Source: a virus
IMG/VR virus record: IMGVR_UViG_3300022818_000051
Span: 1 to 64,000 of that record
Length of the DNA: 64,000 bases
Strand: one strand, 5' to 3'
The notes beneath the pieces are model-generated. The model did not search any database and was not told the DNA's origin. It saw nothing but the letters and a program-made list of their open reading frames with translations. This document shows positions 6,084 through 59,752 of the stretch, piece by piece. Within the stretch, counting starts at the first letter, position 1. The number at the start of each line of letters is the position of its first letter. Position numbers and translations under genes: made by a program.

Positions 6084-6755
6084 TCATGATCTTGTTGTAT
6101 CTTTTACGGTTCTTCCGCCACCAATATGTTTGATGTAACCGGTTTTTGTGATGGCGGCGATGAAACCATATTTATCATAATAAAGTCTGGCGAGGTCAAT
6201 TTCATGACCCACAGCGGAATAGCCACCATCGCCTACCAATTTATAATCTGCGGTTTTGCGTAGGCCGCTGTTTAGAGAAAAGCCACTCCAGCCGTTCGCG
6301 CAGCCGTATTCAAGGAGGTCGTATTTATCGGAAAAAGCAACGACTTTATGACCATTCAAATCGTTTTGCTCACGTAAATGCACTTGCATAATCTTCGGGT
6401 CGGATTCTAATATCTCTATGCTTTTTTCAATAAAGGAATGGCGGAATAGTTCAAAATCATCCTCCATATGGAATATATAGGGTGTGGCAACCTGTTTATA
6501 CATTCGGTCTATGGATTTCATCTGTCCGACTTTTCCAAACATAACCCGCAAATTCATCTCTTCTGGCGCATACTTTCGAAATATTTTAACGATTTTATTC
6601 ATGATTTCGCCATCGAAATCGGTATCCTCACTGATTATGAACTCCGAAATAGCGGAATATGTGTTAAATTTAAAGAAGCTCTCCAACGTTCTTTCAAGCA
6701 GGTCAAATCTTCCGGCGGATGTAAGACAACAAGTTATTTCTGGGTGTTTGTACAT
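6084..6755 (-). CDS. Glycosyltransferase (GT-A fold, family 2-like)
   Basis: LTSAGRFDLLERTLESF, YIFHMEDDF, HIGGGRT. Confidence 0.8.
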   Translation of the reverse strand: MYKHPEITCCLTSAGRFDLLERTLESFFKFNTYSAISEFIISEDTDFDGEIMNKIVKIFRKYAPEEMNLRVMFGKVGQMKSIDRMYKQVATPYIFHMEDDFELFRHSFIEKSIEILESDPKIMQVHLREQNDLNGHKVVAFSDKYDLLEYGCANGWSGFSLNSGLRKTADYKLVGDGGYSAVGHEIDLARLYYDKYGFIAAITKTGYIKHIGGGRTVKDTTRS

Positions 6756-7612
6756 AAAATATTAATATTAAGATGTTTTGTATATTGATTGTTGCGTACT
6801 TGTTTATAGGTAGTAATTTTTCTTGCACTTTCGGTTGTAGCCCGGACAGGGTTCCACCCCCTCTTAATCCTACGATGTATAACGCTATTGCTAACACCCG
6901 TTATGGCTGACCATTGGTTAGTAGTTTTGGTTATACCATTAATGGTTACGTGTACAGTGTTTGATTTATTACTATTCTGTTCTTTATATGTTGCCCACCT
7001 GCAATTGTCTGGCGAGTAGCCTCCGTCGTTATTTATTCTATCAATAGTATGTTTTGGTGTTGGTTTTGCACCCATGTCTTTATAAAATTGTTCAAAAGAA
7101 TGTCTCCATTCGTCACAGACGGTAATGCCTCTTCCTATATACCTATTAGAGCAAGGTAGGTTGGTGGACGTCGTGCGAGCTATTATGTTTTTCCATATAT
7201 TATATTCAGTAGTCCCTGTCGCTCCGTGCTTTAAAAGTCTTTTAGAACACAAATCACGCCGGATACAACCGCATGACTTCGTGTGGCCTGCAACAAGATA
7301 GCTTTTCATTACCACCACCTCGTTACCGCAATCACAGAGGCATTTCCAGAAAGAAAAAGCACCTTTTTTATACGCTAACGATATAGCTGTCAGCTTGCCA
7401 TATTTTAACCCTGTTATATCAATAGTTTTCTTCTTATAGGCACAACCACTACAAGATATTTGTTTTTTTAGACTCCCACGTATAATAGCGAATTCCTTCC
7501 CGCACAATAGACATCTACACAGGTAATGCCCGCAACCATTTTCTCTACCAAGATATTTGATAACTAATAAATTCTGGAAAGTCTGTCCAGATAAATCTTT
7601 AAATTTAGGCAT
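6734..7612 (-). CDS. Free-standing HNH homing endonuclease
   Basis: Repeated CxCxCG..SCGC modules, Y.GRGITVCDEW, TIDRINNDGGYSPDNCRWAT. Confidence 0.85.
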   Translation of the reverse strand: MPKFKDLSGQTFQNLLVIKYLGRENGCGHYLCRCLLCGKEFAIIRGSLKKQISCSGCAYKKKTIDITGLKYGKLTAISLAYKKGAFSFWKCLCDCGNEVVVMKSYLVAGHTKSCGCIRRDLCSKRLLKHGATGTTEYNIWKNIIARTTSTNLPCSNRYIGRGITVCDEWRHSFEQFYKDMGAKPTPKHTIDRINNDGGYSPDNCRWATYKEQNSNKSNTVHVTINGITKTTNQWSAITGVSNSVIHRRIKRGWNPVRATTESARKITTYKQVRNNQYTKHLNINILCTNTQK

Positions 7613-7733
7613 AATTCTTGAATAAAAATAGGGGCTTAACGTTCAACTCGGCCTCATACTCCGAATCTAATAATCAAGTCCCTTTATAATTTTCTCCACC
7701 AAGTATGAGTTGGCTATTAATGGCATAAAGATA
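7613..7733 (-). promoter_or_regulatory. Promoter (-7 box TATCTTTA) plus structured 5' leader with two hairpins with complementary loops
   Basis: CTCATACT loop vs AGTATGAG loop; AGGGACTTGA/TTAAGCCCCT stem followed by ATTTTTATT. Confidence 0.65.
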
Positions 7734-11364: not shown

Positions 11365-12150
11365 TTATTGAGCCTTTTTAAGCGGCGTGAATAACGCTTT
11401 ATTGTAATCCCATTTACGCTGATTAACTCTCGACATTACCAATCCATAGGAATTTCCAGTAATGATAGCCCACTGTTTAATTGTCTTATACTCCCCATTA
11501 TGTTCGTATAATATATTTCTGCCATATCCAATAGGCTCTGTAAGTGCCCTATTTATAGGCCACCCGCTCACTTGAATTCGCATATGAAGGGTTTTGTATG
11601 GTATATTTAATTTCTCAGACCATTGGGCAATAGTTAATGTTTCTCCGTTAAATGTTATCATTACATTAGAGTCTTGATTATTACTCTGCTCTTTTTGTGT
11701 AGACCATTTACAATTTTCTTTAAAATAACCATTTGAGTTGTCTATCCTATCAATAGAATATTCCTTGGATGGTCTTTTGCCCATATCTTCATAAAAATTT
11801 TCAAAAGAATGAAGCCATCTATCACAAACCGTTATGCCTTTATTGAGATAAGAGTTAACCCGATTACTATTTGGGTTGGAGCATCTATTTTTCATCATTG
11901 ACCATGTTTTGTATTCCAATGAATCCTTCATATTATGAGTCCTATTCCATGCGGCTCCTCGCTTTTGCTTATAGGTATGAATGCACCCTCTTGGCTCAAT
12001 TTGTATCTTGTTTAGAATAAATTCGCTTAATATTACCCCTAATCCACAAGTGCAGATACAGTTATAAGAGATGCGTCTTGGTGTGATTATCGCTTTTGAT
12101 GAAACATAAATTCCACCAATAGTTACACCTGTTAAATTTATTTTTTCCAT
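11365..12150 (-). CDS. Free-standing HNH homing endonuclease (start re-assigned to ATG at 12150)
   Basis: W..MKNRC, GITVCDRW, SIDRIDNSNGYFKENCKWST. Confidence 0.85.
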   Translation of the reverse strand: MEKINLTGVTIGGIYVSSKAIITPRRISYNCICTCGLGVILSEFILNKIQIEPRGCIHTYKQKRGAAWNRTHNMKDSLEYKTWSMMKNRCSNPNSNRVNSYLNKGITVCDRWLHSFENFYEDMGKRPSKEYSIDRIDNSNGYFKENCKWSTQKEQSNNQDSNVMITFNGETLTIAQWSEKLNIPYKTLHMRIQVSGWPINRALTEPIGYGRNILYEHNGEYKTIKQWAIITGNSYGLVMSRVNQRKWDYNKALFTPLKKAQ

Positions 12151-12263
12151 ATCAATAAAAATAGCCCAAATCAGAATCAATAGGGGTCGAAGTCTATGTC
12201 ATCCGAAAAGGGCTTTAAGAAGTTAATCGCATTATTTCGACCCGCAATTATTTGATAAAGGTA
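12151..12263 (-). promoter_or_regulatory. Promoter (-7 box TACCTTTA) plus structured 5' leader with two hairpins with complementary loops
   Basis: GGGTCGAA loop vs TTCGACCC loop; AGCCC/GGGCT stem followed by ATTTTTATT. Confidence 0.65.
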
Positions 12264-27723: not shown

Positions 27724-27870
27724 ACGCCTATCCCCTGAAAGGCTAGCCTCAAGGACTAAACCAAAAGTTTAACCTTGAATTTTTCTTCCTTCATAGTCCC
27801 GGCTAATGCTGGCAACTCCAGAAGCTCTTCGGGGCGTTCCACCCCTGAATATTTTAGTAATCCCCAATCC
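27700..27870 (-). ncRNA. Putative omegaRNA (reRNA) overlapping tnpB 3' end; guide inferred to be the flank 27719-27700
   Basis: Established TnpB architecture; right-end hairpin seen; limits inferred. Confidence 0.5.
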
Positions 27871-28975
27871 AAAATATTGAGAGCAGCATTTTTATCACGC
27901 AATACCAACTCCCCACACTTGGGGCAAATCCATGTTCGATCTGCAAGGGTTAAATCCTTATTGATATATCCACATCTATTATGTATTTTGCTACTGGGGT
28001 CGAATCGTCCTATTTCGAGTACATTCTTTCCCCTCCATTCTGATTTATATTTCAAAAATGTCACAAACATCCCCCAACCTGCATCACTAATGGATAGGGC
28101 GAGATGATGATTTTTTATCATATTTTTCGGGGATAAATTCTCAATGCAAATAGTATCATATTGCTTGGTTATTGCATCTGACGCTTTATGCAAGAAATCC
28201 TTTCTTTGGTTGGTTACTTTTTCGTATAATTTGGCTACTTTGTAATTTGCTTCTTTGCGATTATTGCTTCCTTTTAATTTACGAGAAGCCCTATGTTGCA
28301 ACACTTTTAATCTTTTCAAGGATTTTCGCAAACATTTTGGGTTCTCAATTTCAGCACCATTAGAGAGTACCGCAAAAGTTTTTATTCCTAAATCAATACC
28401 TATGGATGTTTTTTTGTCCATAGGCTTTTTATCTGGTATATTAATTCCTGTTTCGATTAGTATGGAGACGAAATATTTATTGGTCGGGGTTTTACTAATA
28501 GTTGCGCTTCGGATGATTCCATTTAATGGACGGCAGAGTACCATCTTGATTCCATTTTTGAATTTTGGAATGTATAAGCAATCGCTTTTAATGGTTATTT
28601 TCTGTGGGCAATGAAATGACTGATTATTGGATTTCTTTTTAAAGTTTGGGAATTTAGCTCGGCCTTTGAAAAAATTATTATATGCGCTATCTAAATTAAG
28701 TAGGGAATATTGCAATGATTGACTATTAACCTCTCTTAACCATTCATGTTCAACCTTTAATCCCCTTAATTGCGCTTGTAAATCATATCTGGAAAGAGTA
28801 ATTCCTGATGTTGAATATGCCTCTGTTTTTCTGCTTAATGCAAGATTGTAGATAAATCGGACACAACCAAAATGTTTAGCCATTAATTCCTTTTGGGAAT
28901 TATCAGGATATAGTCGATATTTATTAGCCTTCAACATATAACAAAGGTACAATAAATATTTAACAAAAACAAGCA
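27720..28975 (-). mobile_element. IS200/IS605-superfamily solo-TnpB (IS1341-like) element; left boundary approximate
   Basis: tnpB with no adjacent tnpA; subterminal hairpin TCCTTGAGGC/GCCTTTCAGGGGA followed by ...GTTCAA right-end motif. Confidence 0.7.
27756..28937 (-). CDS. tnpB: RNA-guided endonuclease TnpB
   Basis: KYRLYP, FGCVRFIYN, GIDLG (RuvC-I D), IENL (RuvC-II E), Zn finger HNRCG..CPKCG, RDKNAALNI (RuvC-III D); TACCTTTG -7 box 4 nt before ATG. Confidence 0.95.
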   Translation of the reverse strand: MLKANKYRLYPDNSQKELMAKHFGCVRFIYNLALSRKTEAYSTSGITLSRYDLQAQLRGLKVEHEWLREVNSQSLQYSLLNLDSAYNNFFKGRAKFPNFKKKSNNQSFHCPQKITIKSDCLYIPKFKNGIKMVLCRPLNGIIRSATISKTPTNKYFVSILIETGINIPDKKPMDKKTSIGIDLGIKTFAVLSNGAEIENPKCLRKSLKRLKVLQHRASRKLKGSNNRKEANYKVAKLYEKVTNQRKDFLHKASDAITKQYDTICIENLSPKNMIKNHHLALSISDAGWGMFVTFLKYKSEWRGKNVLEIGRFDPSSKIHNRCGYINKDLTLADRTWICPKCGELVLRDKNAALNILDWGLLKYSGVERPEELLELPALAGTMKEEKFKVKLLV

Positions 28976-28980
28976 TTTTG

Positions 28981-55289: not shown

Positions 55290-58070
55290 ATGCTACGATT
55301 AAAAAACCCACATGCGGAATGGCCTAAATTGTATCCGAAAGTTGAAAGATACGAAGGCACGATAAAAGATAAGGGATGGGTGAAAGTTGACGGAATTTTA
55401 CTTAGAGATAATATAGATTTAATACCCCAACTTGGTCTGCAAGAACAAGTTATGATGTCTGAGTGCGACCTTATATTTATGGCTGGGGCAGCTACTATGG
55501 GAAAAGAACAACCATATGACGCTGATATTATAACGCCTGATGGAATTAAAAAGATGGGAGACATAGTTATTGGGGATATTATTTCTGACGACAAAGGTTG
55601 TGCTCAACGGGTGTCTAATATTTTTGAACAAGGGGTAAAGGATTGTTTTCGTTTATATTTTGACGATGGGAGTTCCTGCGAATGTGGGGTAGACCACTTA
55701 TGGAAAATAAAAAAGACGGGTAATAAAAAATGGCACGAATGGGAGATAGTTAAATTCTCTGATATAAAAAAATGGATAGACTCCCCGCATAAAGGAGAGA
55801 ATATGTTTATCCCGCTATCTGATAAGGTTGAATTTAATAGCGAATCCAAATATCCAATAAAACCATACACATTAGGTGCTTTAATAGGAGACGGATGTCT
55901 GGTTTGTGGTGGAAGTCAAATTAGGCTTACTTCAGGCGACCCTGAAGTTCCTAATTATATAAAAGAGGACGGTTACGATGTTAGAAAATTAAATAACCCT
56001 AAAAACATAGAGTATAGTGTTCATGGATTGGATATATATAATAATTTGAAGATATTGGGATTAGCTGGGCTTAAATCCAATAAAAAATTTATACCAGACA
56101 TATATAAAAATAGTCCTATCAAAATCAGATTGTCTTTAATTCAAGGATTAATGGACACAGATGGATGTGTAGATAAGAATCATAGACTTAGATTTTACAC
56201 TATAAGCGAAAGGCTGGCTATTGATATTCAGTGGATTCTAAGGTCACTTGGCGCAAAGGCTTCCATTAGAACAAAAAAAGCCACCTATACCTATAAAGGT
56301 GAGAAAAAACAAGGGCAACTATGTTATTCTGTGTACATAAATTCTTCCGATAATGCTTCATTTTTGAGATTAAAAAGAAAAAAAGATAGATGCACGAGTA
56401 TTTTTAATGGCGGAAAATCTGATATAGGACGCAAGGTATTAAGGTATGGATACAGTGGAGTTAAAAAATGCCGATGTATAAAGGTGGATGGATATAGCCA
56501 TCTATACCTTACAAATGATTTTATAGTTACACACAATACCTTCTCTGGGTTTATGAAGGCACTACAAGGGTTAGGCAGAATAGGTTACACAGGTCGTTTA
56601 ATATCAAAAAGATTGCAGGACAGCAAGAAGGGAGGGTCAATCATCCGTGATGCTAAACAAGTTTTCGATGGATTCGCTGGTTGCGAATTTACATCAGGTG
56701 AATATCCTACCGCGTCTTGGAGCCAATGGAATTCCACGATACAATTAACTCACGCAAATTTCAATACCGACAACCCTTCAGAGTGGGAGGAATATAAAGA
56801 CTTCGCCAAGAAAGCTCAATCGGCCTACCAATATTGGGACGAACTCACTGAAATTAAGGACTTTAGGGTTTTCTCATACATGTTTTCAAGGAACAGGGAC
56901 GGGTCTGGGATGAGACCTTGCACTGTCGCATCCTTTAACCCAGAACACGAGCATTGGACTACAGATTTTTTAAGGCAAGCAGGATACATAGGGGATGACT
57001 GGTATGCTATACCCGAAAAATATAACACTGTAAAATATTTCGCAATACACGGTGACAGTATAAAAGATATTGTATTCGGAGATACCAGAGAAGATGTTGC
57101 GATAAAAGCCAATATTATACCAACAGAAGAAGAACTTGATTATGGGTTGACGGCTCTGGATATAGTAAAATCATTCACCTTCCTGTCAGGGTCAGCCATG
57201 AGTAATAAAATATTGGTCAACGCTACTGGCGGTGGGTCGATTGCCAATCTTTATAATGTAGGGGAAACGGAACGTAAAAAAATAAAGGAGGGATATTTTG
57301 GTGCGGATGGGAAAAGCGAACTTACCGTCACTACCAAAATGATTGCCAATTTATGGGAAAATCCTACCGATACATCTAAGGAGTTATTCGCCACAATGGA
57401 CGTGGCAAGTGGCGGAGGGCACATATTGGAGCAATCTGACGGGAAAGAAATAAAACACGATAACTGTACAATGTGGATATGGAGGGGATTGACGGCCATT
57501 GACATACAGGTATTTGAAGGCTCATTAAAAGAATTAGTTCCGTGGATTGAATCTACTCTTGCGAAATGGGGTATTCCTGTGCGCAATTTTGCATTTGATG
57601 CGGTTGCAATAGGATATTTTCTTGCGAGTTTCACGGATGGCATACCTATTGTTGGTAATTCACGGCCAATCCCCGAATATGATGCGGTTGGAAATCAGGT
57701 GTTGTTAGGGTCATACTTCAACCTGCGAACTCAATTAATGGCAAAAACGGCGATGCTGATTGCTACGGGGCAAATGAGCATATCTGTAGACAGGAATAGA
57801 TTATTACCACACGGGCACAATAAGACACCCAAAACGCTGTTTGACATAATGCAGGATGAAAAAAATGTATTCATTCTCGATAAAAAAAATACAAAAGACT
57901 ATTATAAGTCAAAAACAGAATATATGGATAGGTTTAAATCATCTCCTGACTACTTTGACCCATATATATATCGTGCGAGATTCGAGCTTGATGCAAGGCC
58001 AAGAAAAGAGGAAGATGTTGTTTATACGGCATTTGATTATGCGGGGCTATACTCTGGCTGGGGGCGATGA
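55290..58070 (+). CDS. terL: Terminase large subunit containing an intein
   Basis: Walker A AGAATMGK|T split by intein, Walker B YWDEL, SFNP, nuclease MDVA. Confidence 0.88.
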   Translation: MLRLKNPHAEWPKLYPKVERYEGTIKDKGWVKVDGILLRDNIDLIPQLGLQEQVMMSECDLIFMAGAATMGKEQPYDADIITPDGIKKMGDIVIGDIISDDKGCAQRVSNIFEQGVKDCFRLYFDDGSSCECGVDHLWKIKKTGNKKWHEWEIVKFSDIKKWIDSPHKGENMFIPLSDKVEFNSESKYPIKPYTLGALIGDGCLVCGGSQIRLTSGDPEVPNYIKEDGYDVRKLNNPKNIEYSVHGLDIYNNLKILGLAGLKSNKKFIPDIYKNSPIKIRLSLIQGLMDTDGCVDKNHRLRFYTISERLAIDIQWILRSLGAKASIRTKKATYTYKGEKKQGQLCYSVYINSSDNASFLRLKRKKDRCTSIFNGGKSDIGRKVLRYGYSGVKKCRCIKVDGYSHLYLTNDFIVTHNTFSGFMKALQGLGRIGYTGRLISKRLQDSKKGGSIIRDAKQVFDGFAGCEFTSGEYPTASWSQWNSTIQLTHANFNTDNPSEWEEYKDFAKKAQSAYQYWDELTEIKDFRVFSYMFSRNRDGSGMRPCTVASFNPEHEHWTTDFLRQAGYIGDDWYAIPEKYNTVKYFAIHGDSIKDIVFGDTREDVAIKANIIPTEEELDYGLTALDIVKSFTFLSGSAMSNKILVNATGGGSIANLYNVGETERKKIKEGYFGADGKSELTVTTKMIANLWENPTDTSKELFATMDVASGGGHILEQSDGKEIKHDNCTMWIWRGLTAIDIQVFEGSLKELVPWIESTLAKWGIPVRNFAFDAVAIGYFLASFTDGIPIVGNSRPIPEYDAVGNQVLLGSYFNLRTQLMAKTAMLIATGQMSISVDRNRLLPHGHNKTPKTLFDIMQDEKNVFILDKKNTKDYYKSKTEYMDRFKSSPDYFDPYIYRARFELDARPRKEEDVVYTAFDYAGLYSGWGR
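55506..56537 (+). mobile_element. Class 3 intein (344 aa) with LAGLIDADG homing endonuclease
   Basis: EQPYDA start, DHLW block B, LGALIGDG and IQGLMDTDG, CRCI block F, VTHN|T end. Confidence 0.88.
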
Positions 58071-58912
58071 CCGTGACCTTGCTTCCCGATGCCTTTAGTA
58101 AAAGCTTTTTCTATGTCCCATTTTTCGTCATACAATCTGTGATATACAGTATGATAAGGCATATTCAAAAATTCACACCACTGGGCTAATGTCTTTGTTT
58201 CTCCCTTGTACTTAATATTTAAGTTTCTTCTGGTGTTATTACACTGCTCCTTCATATTTATCCATCTGCAATTTCCGGGTGAGTAGTTTCCATTATTATC
58301 TCGTCTGTCGATTGTTAATAATTCTGAATATCCATTATTCATTGACCATTCGTTGAATTCCTCAAAACCGTTCCCCCTTGTCCATTCATCGCAAACTTCA
58401 ATCCCCCTACCTCCGTAATCACAATATTGTTTTAATTTTTTATAATAGCACCTACTCTTTAACCCAAGCCAAATATCATATATTCTACTTCTTGATAGCC
58501 CATGGGTAATGTTGGCTTTATTTAGCATCTCTAATGCGTAACATCCACAAGATGTTGTACCCCCACATACCAAACTCCCTCTACATACGGATGTTATTTG
58601 ATTTTTATCACAACTACATTTGCATAGCCAATACTGGTTACCCCTTTTTATATTATCTCTTCCTATGACTGTGAGCCTCCCAAATATCAACCCAGTTAAA
58701 TCTTTAGGATACCCTGAACTCCATTTTTCACATCCACAACTCGATGTATGTCCACTCCTGACATTATACCCATCCGCTACAATATGGTTCTTATCCTTGC
58801 AATCACATTCGCACTCCCAAAGCGCACGACCGCCCTTATCCCGTCCTGCAAGTCGCAATGCGGTAAGATGTCCAAATTTTTTACCAGTTAAATCATTCCT
58901 TAAACTTCCCAT
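58037..58912 (-). CDS. Free-standing HNH homing endonuclease, overlapping terL 3' end convergently
   Basis: DLTG..FG.LT, W.C.C.C, SCGC x2, YGGRGIEVCDEW, TIDRRDNNGNYSPGNCRW. Confidence 0.88.
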   Translation of the reverse strand: MGSLRNDLTGKKFGHLTALRLAGRDKGGRALWECECDCKDKNHIVADGYNVRSGHTSSCGCEKWSSGYPKDLTGLIFGRLTVIGRDNIKRGNQYWLCKCSCDKNQITSVCRGSLVCGGTTSCGCYALEMLNKANITHGLSRSRIYDIWLGLKSRCYYKKLKQYCDYGGRGIEVCDEWTRGNGFEEFNEWSMNNGYSELLTIDRRDNNGNYSPGNCRWINMKEQCNNTRRNLNIKYKGETKTLAQWCEFLNMPYHTVYHRLYDEKWDIEKAFTKGIGKQGHGHRPQPEYSPA

Positions 58913-59004
58913 AATCTTTAAATATTAACCCCCACGCAGCAGTGATAGCAGCACAACCACGCAGGGGCTTGAAAAATACCATGTTCGTCTATCTGCTTAT
59001 AGAC
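58913..59004 (-). promoter_or_regulatory. Structured 5' leader with two hairpins with complementary loops
   Basis: GTCTAT-AAGCAG-ATAGAC; 18-bp AGCCCC...GGGGTT stem with CTGCTAT loop. Confidence 0.6.
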
Positions 59005-59494: not shown

Positions 59495-59569
59495 TGGTTG
59501 CGAGTCCGTGAATTGAACACGGGTCATGGGGATATGAACCCCATATACTAACCACTATACCAACTCGCA
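59495..59569 (-). tRNA. tRNA-Met(CAT), initiator-like, CCA encoded
   Basis: TGCGAGT/ACTCGCA acceptor, TGGGG-TTCATAT-CCCCA anticodon arm, CCGTG-TTCAATT-CACGG T arm, ACCA. Confidence 0.9.
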
Positions 59570-59680: not shown

Positions 59681-59752
59681 TTACAACAGACAGATTTGGA
59701 CTGCCGACCTTCAATTTATCAGACTGATGCTCTACCACTGAGCTATGTTGTA
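59681..59752 (-). tRNA. tRNA-Ile(GAT), no encoded CCA, T-loop TCCAAAT
   Basis: TACAACA/TGTTGTA acceptor, GCTC-AGTGGTA-GAGC D arm, TCAGT-CTGATAA-ATTGA anticodon arm. Confidence 0.85.

What the first reader, a model, noticed from the sequence alone, without database searches (positions are those of the whole stretch)
7613..7733. Kissing-loop RNA leader shared by all three HNH endonuclease genes (copy 1 and overall system)
Seen (minus strand): after a -7 box, a small hairpin GCCA-[ACTCATACT]-TGGT, then a long hairpin AGGGACTTGA..TTCGG-[AGTATGAGG]-CCGAG..TTAAGCCCCT followed by ATTTTTATT and the HNH start. The two loops are complementary over 8 nt (CTCATACT/AGTATGAG). The same architecture precedes the other two HNH genes (12151-12263, 58913-59004), but each uses a completely different complementary loop pair, i.e. 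structure is conserved while sequence co-varies. Inference: a mobile HNH cassette carrying a cis-regulatory loop-loop pseudoknot built on a terminator-like stem, with orthogonal loop codes that could insulate paralogs from one another, control nuclease toxicity by attenuation, or release a short RNA that partners with the protein. I do not recognise it as a named RNA family.
Basis: partly seen in the sequence, partly recalled or inferred. Interest (0 to 1): 0.85.

Follow-up and report, generated by a model that had tools for sequence, protein, structure and literature searches.

The report
Pseudoknotted leader before phage HNH genes
Three homing-endonuclease genes of an uncultured Bacteroidetes-type phage each sit behind a folded RNA leader in which an early hairpin can pair with the tip of a terminator-like hairpin, probably to keep the nuclease under tight control.

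Summary
The anatomy is real for copies 1 and 2. Each has a Bacteroidetes-type -7 box, a 5' hairpin (H1), an A/U linker and a long hairpin (T) with a GC-rich base and a U-tract 12-20 nt before the HNH start codon. An 8-nt perfect complement joins the H1 loop to the T loop. Copy 3 has both hairpins but no -7 box, and only 5 complementary bases.

Chance does not explain copies 1 and 2 well (12/2000 and 9/2000 shuffles). Copy 3 is not significant alone (369/2000).

Support from elsewhere is thin but independent. Four distant homologues have a consensus -7 box at least 110 nt upstream. Three of them (L166, L177, L201) show the same layout with other sequences: 7, 16 and 6 bp. L166 is syntenic with copy 3. 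Its stems carry compensatory changes while its loops are kept.

There is no Rfam match.

My reading is a cis-acting pseudoknot or kissing leader that limits or tunes nuclease expression. The regulatory direction, the "orthogonal code" idea and any released RNA remain untested. It is a small new RNA motif of a known regulatory kind.

The parts
7726..7733 (-). Copy 1: -7-box-like promoter element TATCTTTA. A TTTG lies 20 nt upstream.
   Evidence: The genome's other intergenic promoter-like sites read TATCTTTG. Promoter activity is inferred.
7698..7714 (-). Copy 1: hairpin H1 (GCCA / ACTCATACT / TGGT). Its loop holds segment b, CTCATACT(T), at 7709-7701.
   Evidence: The hairpin is weak and not in the centroid fold.
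7630..7683 (-). Copy 1: terminator-like hairpin T. Its apical 9-nt loop holds b', (G)AGTATGAG, at 7661-7653.
   Evidence: RNAfold MFE and centroid. Coordinates.
7613..7629 (-). Copy 1: U-rich tract ATTTTTATT plus a short A/U spacer up to the HNH start codon (ATG 7612-7610).
6734..7612 (-). HNH endonuclease gene 1 (292 aa).
   Evidence: PHROG 374 E = 1.7e-75. No Pfam hit at E <= 0.01.
12256..12263 (-). Copy 2: -7-box-like element TACCTTTA.
12225..12249 (-). Copy 2: hairpin H1 (AATTGC / 13-nt loop / GCGATT). Segment b, GGGTCGAA, lies at 12243-12236.
12163..12214 (-). Copy 2: hairpin T (5 bp, 3x3 loop, 5 bp, 4x4 UGAC/UGAU loop, 4 bp, 10-nt loop). Segment b', TTCGACCC, lies at 12191-12184.
12154..12162 (-). 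Copy 2: U-rich tract ATTTTTATT directly before the ATG (12153-12151).
11365..12153 (-). HNH endonuclease gene 2 (262 aa from the ATG at 12153; the ORF listing gives a TTG at 12180).
   Evidence: The N-terminus MEKINLTG matches the family's DLTG start.
58987..59004 (-). Copy 3: hairpin H1 (GTCTAT / AAGCAG / ATAGAC). Segment b, AGCAG, lies at 58997-58993.
58927..58969 (-). Copy 3: hairpin T (14 bp, 1x1, 3 bp, 7-nt loop CTGCTAT). Segment b', CTGCT, lies at 58951-58947. The tail AATATTTAAAGATT runs to the ATG at 58912.
58037..58912 (-). HNH endonuclease gene 3 (291 aa), convergent with the 926-aa gene at 55290-58070.

Best explanation
What it is. The window is the first 64 kb of a 72-kb uncultured phage that uses Bacteroidetes-type promoters. 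It carries three free-standing HNH homing-endonuclease genes. Each is preceded by a structured RNA leader of about 90-110 nt: a 5'-proximal hairpin H1, an A/U-rich linker, and a long hairpin T with a GC-rich base, followed by a U-rich tract that runs into the start codon. A segment in or at the H1 loop pairs with the apical loop of T. The leader can therefore fold into a kissing-loop or H-type pseudoknot.

Shown here:
- the hairpins;
- the complementarity and its rarity in shuffles;
- recurrence of the same layout with other sequences in three distant homologues;
- compensatory stem changes with conserved loops between copy 3 and its syntenic relative L166.

Inferred:
- Copies 1 and 2 are transcribed from their own -7 promoter.
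- T acts as a leaky intrinsic terminator and structural barrier that keeps nuclease expression low and insulates it from upstream transcription.
- The pairing forms as soon as the T loop leaves the polymerase, and so sets how often T closes. That in turn sets how much read-through mRNA with a free A/U-rich start region is made.

The direction of the effect (more or less read-through) cannot be told from sequence.
For: - Anatomy and coordinates.
- Rarity: loop-confined complements of at least 8 bp occur in 12/2000 and 9/2000 shuffles of copies 1 and 2, and in 12/2222 genome windows.
- In each of c1, c2 and L177 the longest helix not used by the MFE fold is exactly this 5'-segment to T-apex helix: 9, 8 and 16 bp.
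- Homologues: 7 of 184 unique HNH upstream regions carry a TAYCTTTR box. In 4 of these the box lies at least 110 nt upstream (L166, L177, L201, L135). Three of those 4 show box, 5' segment, T with a U-tract, and a complement in the T apex: GTAGCAG/CTGCTAC; 16 bp with one G.U; TAGCGG/CCGCTA.
- Combined tests over all 7 HNH leaders, the negative L135 included: Fisher P = 9.6e-6 and 3.1e-4 (RNAduplex). A stricter contiguous-helix test gives 0.002, although it mis-parsed L166.
- L166 lies in a relative of this phage. Its flanking genes are 51-61% identical in translation, and it has the same convergent neighbour and a tRNA upstream.
- Against copy 3, L166's T loop is 6/7 identical and both H1 loops keep AGCAG. 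By my reading of alignment A2, 2 of 3 apical-stem pairs and 1 lower pair carry double compensatory changes, and the H1 stems are entirely different.
- Copies 1 and 2 share promoter and tail sequence but not the middle.
- Tight control of homing-endonuclease genes by terminators and hairpins is established in T4-like phages (PMC2988022, passages read).
Against: - There are only six examples, from at most four or five independent lineages.
- Copy 3 (P = 0.18; 0.73) and L201 (P = 0.23) are not significant alone.
- Under the stricter test, copies 1 and 2 reach only P = 0.04 and 0.024.
- Whole-leader folding energies of copies 1 and 2 are ordinary (z = -0.24, -0.82).
- H1 of copy 1 is marginal.
- Most family members lack the design. 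None was found in the 9 HNH ORFs of 8 Bacteroidota genome loci, in 70 further upstream regions, or in L135.
- Eight to nine base pairs inside 9-10-nt loops is sterically tight for a true kissing complex.
- Copies 1 and 2 lie inside a long same-strand operon with genes abutting downstream. An efficient terminator there would be costly.
- There is no transcript evidence.
Confidence: 0.5

Rival explanations
1. An ordinary terminator plus an incidental small hairpin. T is simply an intrinsic terminator or mRNA-stabilising hairpin at a cassette boundary. The complementarity to the upstream segment is chance, picked out after the fact.
For: - An 8-mer complement somewhere in a leader occurs in 12-17% of shuffles.
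- Copy 3, L201 and L135 give no significant signal.
- Folding z-scores of copies 1 and 2 are ordinary.
- Many HNH homologues in other phages are simply preceded by plain hairpins or terminators.
Against: - Loop-confined 8-mers are rare, about 0.5%, yet occur in two of three paralogous leaders.
- L177 has a 16-bp match (P <= 0.0005) at the same topological position.
- L166 and copy 3 keep the loops while their stems change.
- Combined P is 1e-5 to 2e-3.
Confidence: 0.2
2. A switch rather than a simultaneous pseudoknot. The 5' segment and the T apex pair as an alternative, mutually exclusive fold (an antiterminator-like state). Short upstream reading frames whose ribosomes run into T may help on read-through transcripts from the upstream gene. 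Transcripts from the cassette's own promoter would terminate, while operon transcripts would pass.
For: - Forcing the helix in nested folding gives states 8-9 kcal/mol above the terminator fold: c1 -13.5 against -22.3, c2 -13.6 against -21.3, L177 -22.0 against -30.5. In L166 the helix is itself part of the MFE.
- A 19-codon frame in copy 1 starts on the last base of the -7 box and stops 14 nt into T.
- A 40-codon frame in copy 2 starts with an ATGA overlap on the upstream gene's stop and stops 35 nt into T.
- This would explain how genes downstream of copies 1 and 2 are still transcribed.
Against: - The complementary segment lies in the loop of T, not in a stem arm. It does not compete for the terminator's bases, as classical antiterminators do.
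- The short frames show no conservation that I could see.
- Stops are frequent in A/T-rich sequence, so frames ending near T are expected by chance. I ran no control for this.
Confidence: 0.15
3. A separate small RNA gene. Promoter plus terminator makes an RNA of about 85-100 nt that acts in trans, for example on nascent copies of the same leader through the two complementary loops. It would give each cassette its own feedback loop, as the leader-derived immunity RNAs of phages P1/P7 and P4 do (recalled from memory, not checked in any call).
For: - A consensus -7 box is followed after about 90-110 nt by a hairpin with a U-tract in c1, c2, L166, L177 and L201.
- The loop pairs differ between the paralogues in one genome, which a trans-acting system would need.
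Against: - Copy 3 has no promoter of its own.
- No RNA data exist.
- Differing loops are equally expected from drift with compensation, because the genes are only about 35% identical.
Confidence: 0.1
4. A DNA-level signal. The interleaved inverted repeats are protein-binding or nuclease-recognition sites in the DNA, not RNA structure.
For: Homing endonucleases can bind operator-like sites next to their own genes (I-TevI autorepression, PMC2988022, passage).
Against: - The H1 stem of copy 1 and several T pairs rely on G.U pairs, which exist on the RNA strand only.
- Repeat length and spacing vary from 5 to 16 bp.
- The repeats always sit in predicted loops.
Confidence: 0.05

Closest known systems
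Regulatory hairpins and terminators of T4-family homing-endonuclease genes (I-TevI/II/III, segB, mobE, seg43(25))
   Same: - A free-standing or intron-borne nuclease gene is held in check by RNA structure directly upstream, and by terminators.
- In seg43(25) a very stable hairpin sits just upstream of the ribosome-binding site without covering it, as here (PMC2988022, passages read).
   Different: - The T4 hairpins sequester a Shine-Dalgarno site, and a late promoter inside the hairpin relieves them.
- Here there is no Shine-Dalgarno site and the start codon lies 12-20 nt beyond the hairpin.
- The promoter lies upstream of the whole structure.
- There is an additional long-range loop pairing.
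Guanidine-II (mini-ykkC) riboswitch
   Same: Two tandem hairpins in a 5' leader, separated by a variable linker, whose loops are proposed to kiss within one RNA to control the gene downstream (abstracts of PMC5558903 and PMC7544219 as listed).
   Different: - Its loops are identical, conserved ACGR tetraloops that bind the ligand.
- Here the loops differ in every copy and are Watson-Crick complementary over 5-16 nt, so there is no conserved ligand pocket.
- No Rfam hit.
Cobalamin riboswitch L5-L13 kissing loop (recalled; only the title and abstract start of PMC5049679 were seen)
   Same: A loop of an upstream element pairs with the loop of the expression-platform hairpin to decide gene expression.
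   Different: It needs a large conserved aptamer, and none is present here (Rfam negative).
Leader-derived immunity RNAs of phages P1/P7 (c4) and P4 (CI) (recalled from memory, no call)
   Same: Short RNAs from a phage leader pair with complementary sites in the same transcript. Related phages carry different but matched sequence pairs.
   Different: Those act in trans after processing and control immunity operons. Nothing here shows processing or trans action.
Terminator-loop pairing by small RNAs (PMC11979758; title and abstract start only)
   Same: The loop of an intrinsic terminator is used as a base-pairing surface for regulation.
   Different: That case concerns trans-acting E. coli sRNAs and their mRNA targets, not one leader pairing with itself.

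Membership tests
Any Rfam 15 family | Covariance-model match at or near the gathering score. | tested here: not met
   The whole window at gathering threshold gave only two tRNAs. The three leaders at E <= 10 gave only noise: best 14.2 bits against cut-offs of 41-80. The homologue loci L166, L177 and L201 at E <= 1 gave nothing on their leaders.
Intrinsic (rho-independent) terminator | GC-rich stem immediately followed by a U-rich tract. | tested here: met
   c1...GCCCCT + ATTTTTATT. c2: GGGCT + ATTTTTATT. L166, L177 and L201 likewise. Copy 3's tail, AATATTTAAAG, is poor.
Intrinsic (rho-independent) terminator | Transcripts actually end there. | not testable with these tools
   No sequencing run holding this DNA was listed.
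Bacteroidetes sigma-A promoter | -7 motif TAnnTTTG with TTTG about 19-21 nt upstream (motif recalled from memory; the local consensus TATCTTTG was seen). | tested here: inconclusive
   c1 has TATCTTTA with TTTG 20 nt upstream. c2 has TACCTTTA with ATTG 20 nt upstream. Both end in A instead of G. L166, L177 and L201 have the exact TATCTTTG. Copy 3 has none.
T4-type translational repressor hairpin of homing-endonuclease genes | The hairpin includes the ribosome-binding site or start codon. | tested here: not met
   T ends 17, 9 and 14 nt before the ATG in copies 1-3, and no Shine-Dalgarno sequence is present.
Guanidine-II riboswitch | Two hairpins capped by conserved ACGR tetraloops. | tested here: not met
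   The loops are 6-13 nt, differ in every copy, and contain no ACGR tetraloop.
HNH homing endonuclease (PHROG 374/3377) | Profile match over the nuclease core. | tested here: met
   E = 1.7e-75, 2.9e-60 and 2.7e-84 for the three proteins. Pfam-A gave no hit at E <= 0.01. 529 GenBank phage records hold relatives at E <= 1e-20, many annotated as HNH endonuclease. Nuclease activity was not tested.
Group I intron carrying the nuclease gene | Flanking ORFs are two halves of one gene, and the intron core is detectable. | tested here: not met
   No intron model hit. The ORF upstream of copy 2 matches the C-terminal ends of PHROG families, so it is complete.

The most novel reading that the evidence does not exclude
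Each nuclease cassette encodes a self-addressed RNA controller. The short leader RNA that ends at T accumulates. Through its private pair of complementary loops it docks onto nascent leaders of the same cassette only, and changes their termination. Every homing-endonuclease cassette in one phage would then have an independent, sequence-coded feedback loop: a sense-RNA counterpart of plasmid copy-control RNAs.
Probability: 0.08. Interest if true: 0.8.

Novelty: new variant of a known kind. Interest (0 to 1): 0.55.

Why it matters
Homing endonucleases are selfish and potentially toxic, and how phages outside the T4 group keep them in check is little known. Bacteroidetes and their phages also lack Shine-Dalgarno-based translational control, so the T4 solution of hiding the ribosome-binding site is not available to them.

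A promoter-proximal pseudoknot built on a terminator would be a different solution. It would also be a compact, sequence-programmable regulatory part for Bacteroides genetics. If it holds in more genomes it deserves an RNA-family entry.

At present it rests on six leaders and no experiment.

Tried and rejected
Searches for relatives:
- A close relative of the phage or its HNH genes was not found. Megablast against GenBank phages gave no match. IMG/VR, metagenome and genome scans gave at most 53-58% protein identity on short segments. The copy-3 protein and the ORF upstream of copy 1 gave nothing in IMG/VR.
- The 926-aa neighbour gave only distant N-terminal matches.
- Pattern scans for the shared promoter motif gave 0 hits. 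Promoter plus tail gave 10 A/T-rich chance hits.
- Of 401 genomes of the phylum of a Bacteroides MAG, 3 held the family. The two new loci were GC-rich and unrelated in layout.

Detectors and tests that worked poorly:
- The MFE-based loop-loop detector missed copies 1 and 2 once coding flank was included, so I replaced it.
- The automatic T-domain test drew poor boundaries. The stricter version mis-parsed L166. I report both.
- My genome-wide terminator scan was far too permissive (566 hits) and I dropped it.
- L138's apparent 7-bp 'kiss' turned out to be the basal stem of a different conserved leader.

- Sequencing runs: none was listed and no RNA holder was listed.
- Supplementary files of papers were not consulted.

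Ideas rejected:
- A group I intron, ribozyme classes in Rfam, and HEARO/omega RNA were rejected for lack of any model hit.

Not in print, as far as two searches show:
- 'homing endonuclease' + pseudoknot + untranslated region + free-standing.
- 'kissing loop' + terminator + leader + bacteriophage.

Full report
**Context**

The window is bases 1-64000 of a 72,321-bp virus record that CheckV rates complete. It is 41% G+C. Genes are tightly packed.

Many intergenic regions carry TATCTTTG, the Bacteroidetes '-7 box' type of promoter (motif name recalled; sites seen). This points to a Bacteroidota host.

Three minus-strand genes match PHROG HNH-endonuclease families at E = 1.7e-75 to 2.7e-84. They are 6734-7612, 11365-12153 and 58037-58912. 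Pfam gave no hit. The three proteins are 33-37% identical to one another. Relatives occur in 529 GenBank phage records.

Genes 1 and 2 lie in a long minus-strand replication and nucleotide-metabolism operon that includes a primase and a methyltransferase. Gene 3 ends a transcription unit that starts near two tRNA genes and converges on a 926-aa gene.

**The observation**

On the minus strand, copy 1 reads as follows:
- TATCTTTA (7733-7726);
- GCCA-ACTCATACT-TGGT (7714-7698);
- a 14-nt A-rich linker;
- a 54-nt hairpin (7683-7630) with a GC-rich base, a 5x4 internal loop, a 7-bp upper stem and the loop AGTATGAGG;
- ATTTTTATT, then the ATG at 7612.

Copy 2 has the same order: TACCTTTA, AATTGC-13 nt-GCGATT, a linker, a 52-nt interrupted hairpin, ATTTTTATT, then the ATG.

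In both copies the longest perfect complement in the whole leader is the 8-mer that joins the first hairpin's loop to the second hairpin's loop. The pairs are CTCATACT/AGTATGAG and GGGTCGAA/TTCGACCC.

Copy 3 has a clean 6-bp hairpin and a 17-bp hairpin, but only AGCAG/CTGCT between the loops. It has no -7 box and a poor U-tract.

Its description is right for two copies and generous for the third.

**Is it chance?**

An 8-mer complement anywhere in such a leader is not rare: 12% and 17% of shuffles.

I then asked for both halves to lie in loops of at most 14 nt closed by stems of at least 4 bp. Under that condition:
- At least 8 bp occurs in 12/2000 and 9/2000 shuffles of copies 1 and 2.
- It occurs in 12/2222 windows of the real genome on both strands, the two leaders included.
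- Copy 3's 5 bp is matched by 369/2000 shuffles.

A stricter test takes the best contiguous helix between everything 5' of T and everything inside T, and shuffles the 5' part. It gives P = 0.04, 0.024 and 0.73 for copies 1 to 3.

Total folding energy is unremarkable for copies 1 and 2. H1 of copy 1 is marginal.

**Evidence from elsewhere**

No close relative exists in the collections I could reach.

I took 184 unique 140-nt upstream regions of distant family members:
- Loop-confined complements of at least 8 bp occur in 5, and of at least 7 bp in 11.
- Seven regions carry a TAYCTTTR box. In four of them it lies at least 110 nt upstream.
- Three of those four repeat the design with a perfect TATCTTTG box and unrelated sequences. 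The fourth, L135, does not.

The three positive cases:
- L166: H1 loop GTAGCAG against T loop CTGCTAC, 7 bp.
- L177: a 16-bp match with one G.U between the 5' segment and a 30-nt apical loop of a 16-bp GC-based hairpin. P <= 0.0005.
- L201: TAGCGG against CCGCTA, 6 bp. Here the pairing uses the 3' arm of H1.

Fisher combination over all seven HNH leaders gives 9.6e-6 and 3.1e-4 with RNAduplex energies, where the boundaries were imperfect. The strict test gives 0.002, with L166 mis-parsed to P = 0.82.

Other sets gave nothing:
- A promoter-anchored scan of all 1.48 Mb held (109 unique TATCTTTG boxes) returned L177, L166 and L201 among 14 hits. The other 11 showed no such layout. Copies 1 and 2 were not eligible because their boxes end in A.
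- Nine HNH ORFs in eight Bacteroidota genome loci lack the design.
- So do 70 further upstream regions.

**The copy 3 / L166 pair**

L166 comes from a relative of this phage. The convergent neighbour is 51-61% identical in translation, and another flank matches the gene at 67019-68488. A tRNA lies upstream, as in the window. The nucleases are 48% identical.

In the leader alignment:
- The T loop is CTGCTAT against CTGCTAC.
- Both H1 loops contain AGCAG.
- By my reading of the columns, two of the three apical-stem pairs and one lower pair of T differ by double, pair-preserving changes.
- The two H1 stems share no sequence, yet both form.

Stems drift with compensation while the loops stay. This is what a functional loop-loop contact, or a loop-binding factor, predicts. 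It also means that copy 3's 'code' is inherited rather than independently evolved. Copy 3 has lost two of L166's seven pairs.

**What it most likely is**

It is a cis-acting structured leader. 'Kissing loop' fits copies 1-3 and L166. L177 (16 bp) and L201 (stem arm) show that the general feature is a pseudoknot between a 5'-proximal segment and the apex of the terminator-like hairpin.

Three T hairpins (copy 2, L166, L201) also share a 4x4 internal loop with tandem G.A/A.G potential, 3-4 bp below the apical loop. The loops are UGAC/UGAU, GGAC/UGAA and GGAU/UGAA. This is my reading of the folds.

Because T has a GC-rich base and a U-tract, the simplest function is a leaky terminator and barrier that limits nuclease expression. 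The pairing would tune its folding as the loop emerges. This parallels the multilayer restraint of T4-family homing-endonuclease genes (PMC2988022), but it uses neither RBS sequestration nor an internal late promoter.

**Unresolved points**

- Copies 1 and 2 sit in mid-operon, with downstream genes abutting. T therefore cannot be fully efficient for operon transcripts.
- Short frames run from the upstream gene into T. One is 19 codons, stopping 14 nt into T. The other is 40 codons, with an ATGA overlap, stopping 35 nt into T. They could let translating ribosomes suppress T on operon transcripts only. I ran no control for this.
- The tail TATTTTTAT after T also resembles a -7 box.
- Nested folding places the paired state 8-9 kcal/mol above the terminator state. 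A switch is therefore possible but not favoured unless both helices coexist.

**Comparison and novelty**

There is no Rfam family. Two literature searches found no description.

The regulatory kind is known: leader hairpins of nuclease genes, and loop-loop contacts in guanidine-II and cobalamin riboswitches (recalled). This particular architecture, its promoter context and its association with HNH cassettes in Bacteroidetes-type phages appear to be new.

The evidence base is small and entirely computational.

Noticed in passing
same genome, outside the window: about 65922-65807 (minus strand), before an 83-aa ORF at 65806-65555: A perfect TATCTTTG box is followed by a 108-nt leader. An upstream AGTGGACG is complementary to CGTCCACT inside a GC-based hairpin (AACCCCG...CGGGGTT). 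This is the same interleaved layout as the HNH leaders, but with an A-rich tail and a small Cys-rich, non-HNH gene. P = 0.058 in the strict test. The design may not be specific to nuclease genes.
   Followed up: partly
loci L067 (about 1120-1250), L138 (about 1100-1225), L159 (about 915-1040): Three HNH homologues with Shine-Dalgarno sites share a different leader. A covarying outer stem encloses the conserved UAGRGUAGCUCYCGAA. A segment inside the stem is complementary to a segment just before the ribosome-binding site, which is again a pseudoknot-like layout. No Rfam hit.
   Followed up: partly
loci L120 and L128, upstream of their HNH genes: The loop of a terminator-like hairpin is complementary to the purine-rich, Shine-Dalgarno-like sequence near the start codon: GCCTTTCC/GGAAAGGC and CCTACAT/ATGTAGG. 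This suggests loop-to-RBS pairing in other hosts.
   Followed up: no
window 7722-7663 and 12299-12177 (minus strand): Short frames of 19 and 40 codons run from the end of the upstream gene through H1 and stop inside hairpin T. The second starts with an ATGA overlap on the upstream stop codon.
   Followed up: partly
window 27756-28976 (minus strand): A 406-aa ORF matches the PHROG 506 'transposase' family at E = 2.4e-121, so an insertion-sequence-like gene lies inside the phage.
   Followed up: no
window 59498-59569 and 59681-59752 (minus strand); L166 666-736: Two tRNA genes lie upstream of HNH gene 3, and a tRNA lies upstream of the syntenic HNH in L166. The nuclease sits beside a tRNA cluster, as segB does in T4 (abstract of PMC2330249, listed).
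   Followed up: no
window 55290-58070 (plus strand): The 926-aa protein hits both 'terminase large subunit' and primase/helicase PHROG families over its N-terminal ATPase part. Only that part has relatives in IMG/VR, so its identity is unclear.
   Followed up: no
window 7629-7621 and 12162-12154 (minus strand): The conserved tail (C)TATTTTTAT after hairpin T also fits the loose -7-box pattern TAnnTTTR. It could be a second promoter giving a very short or absent leader.
   Followed up: no
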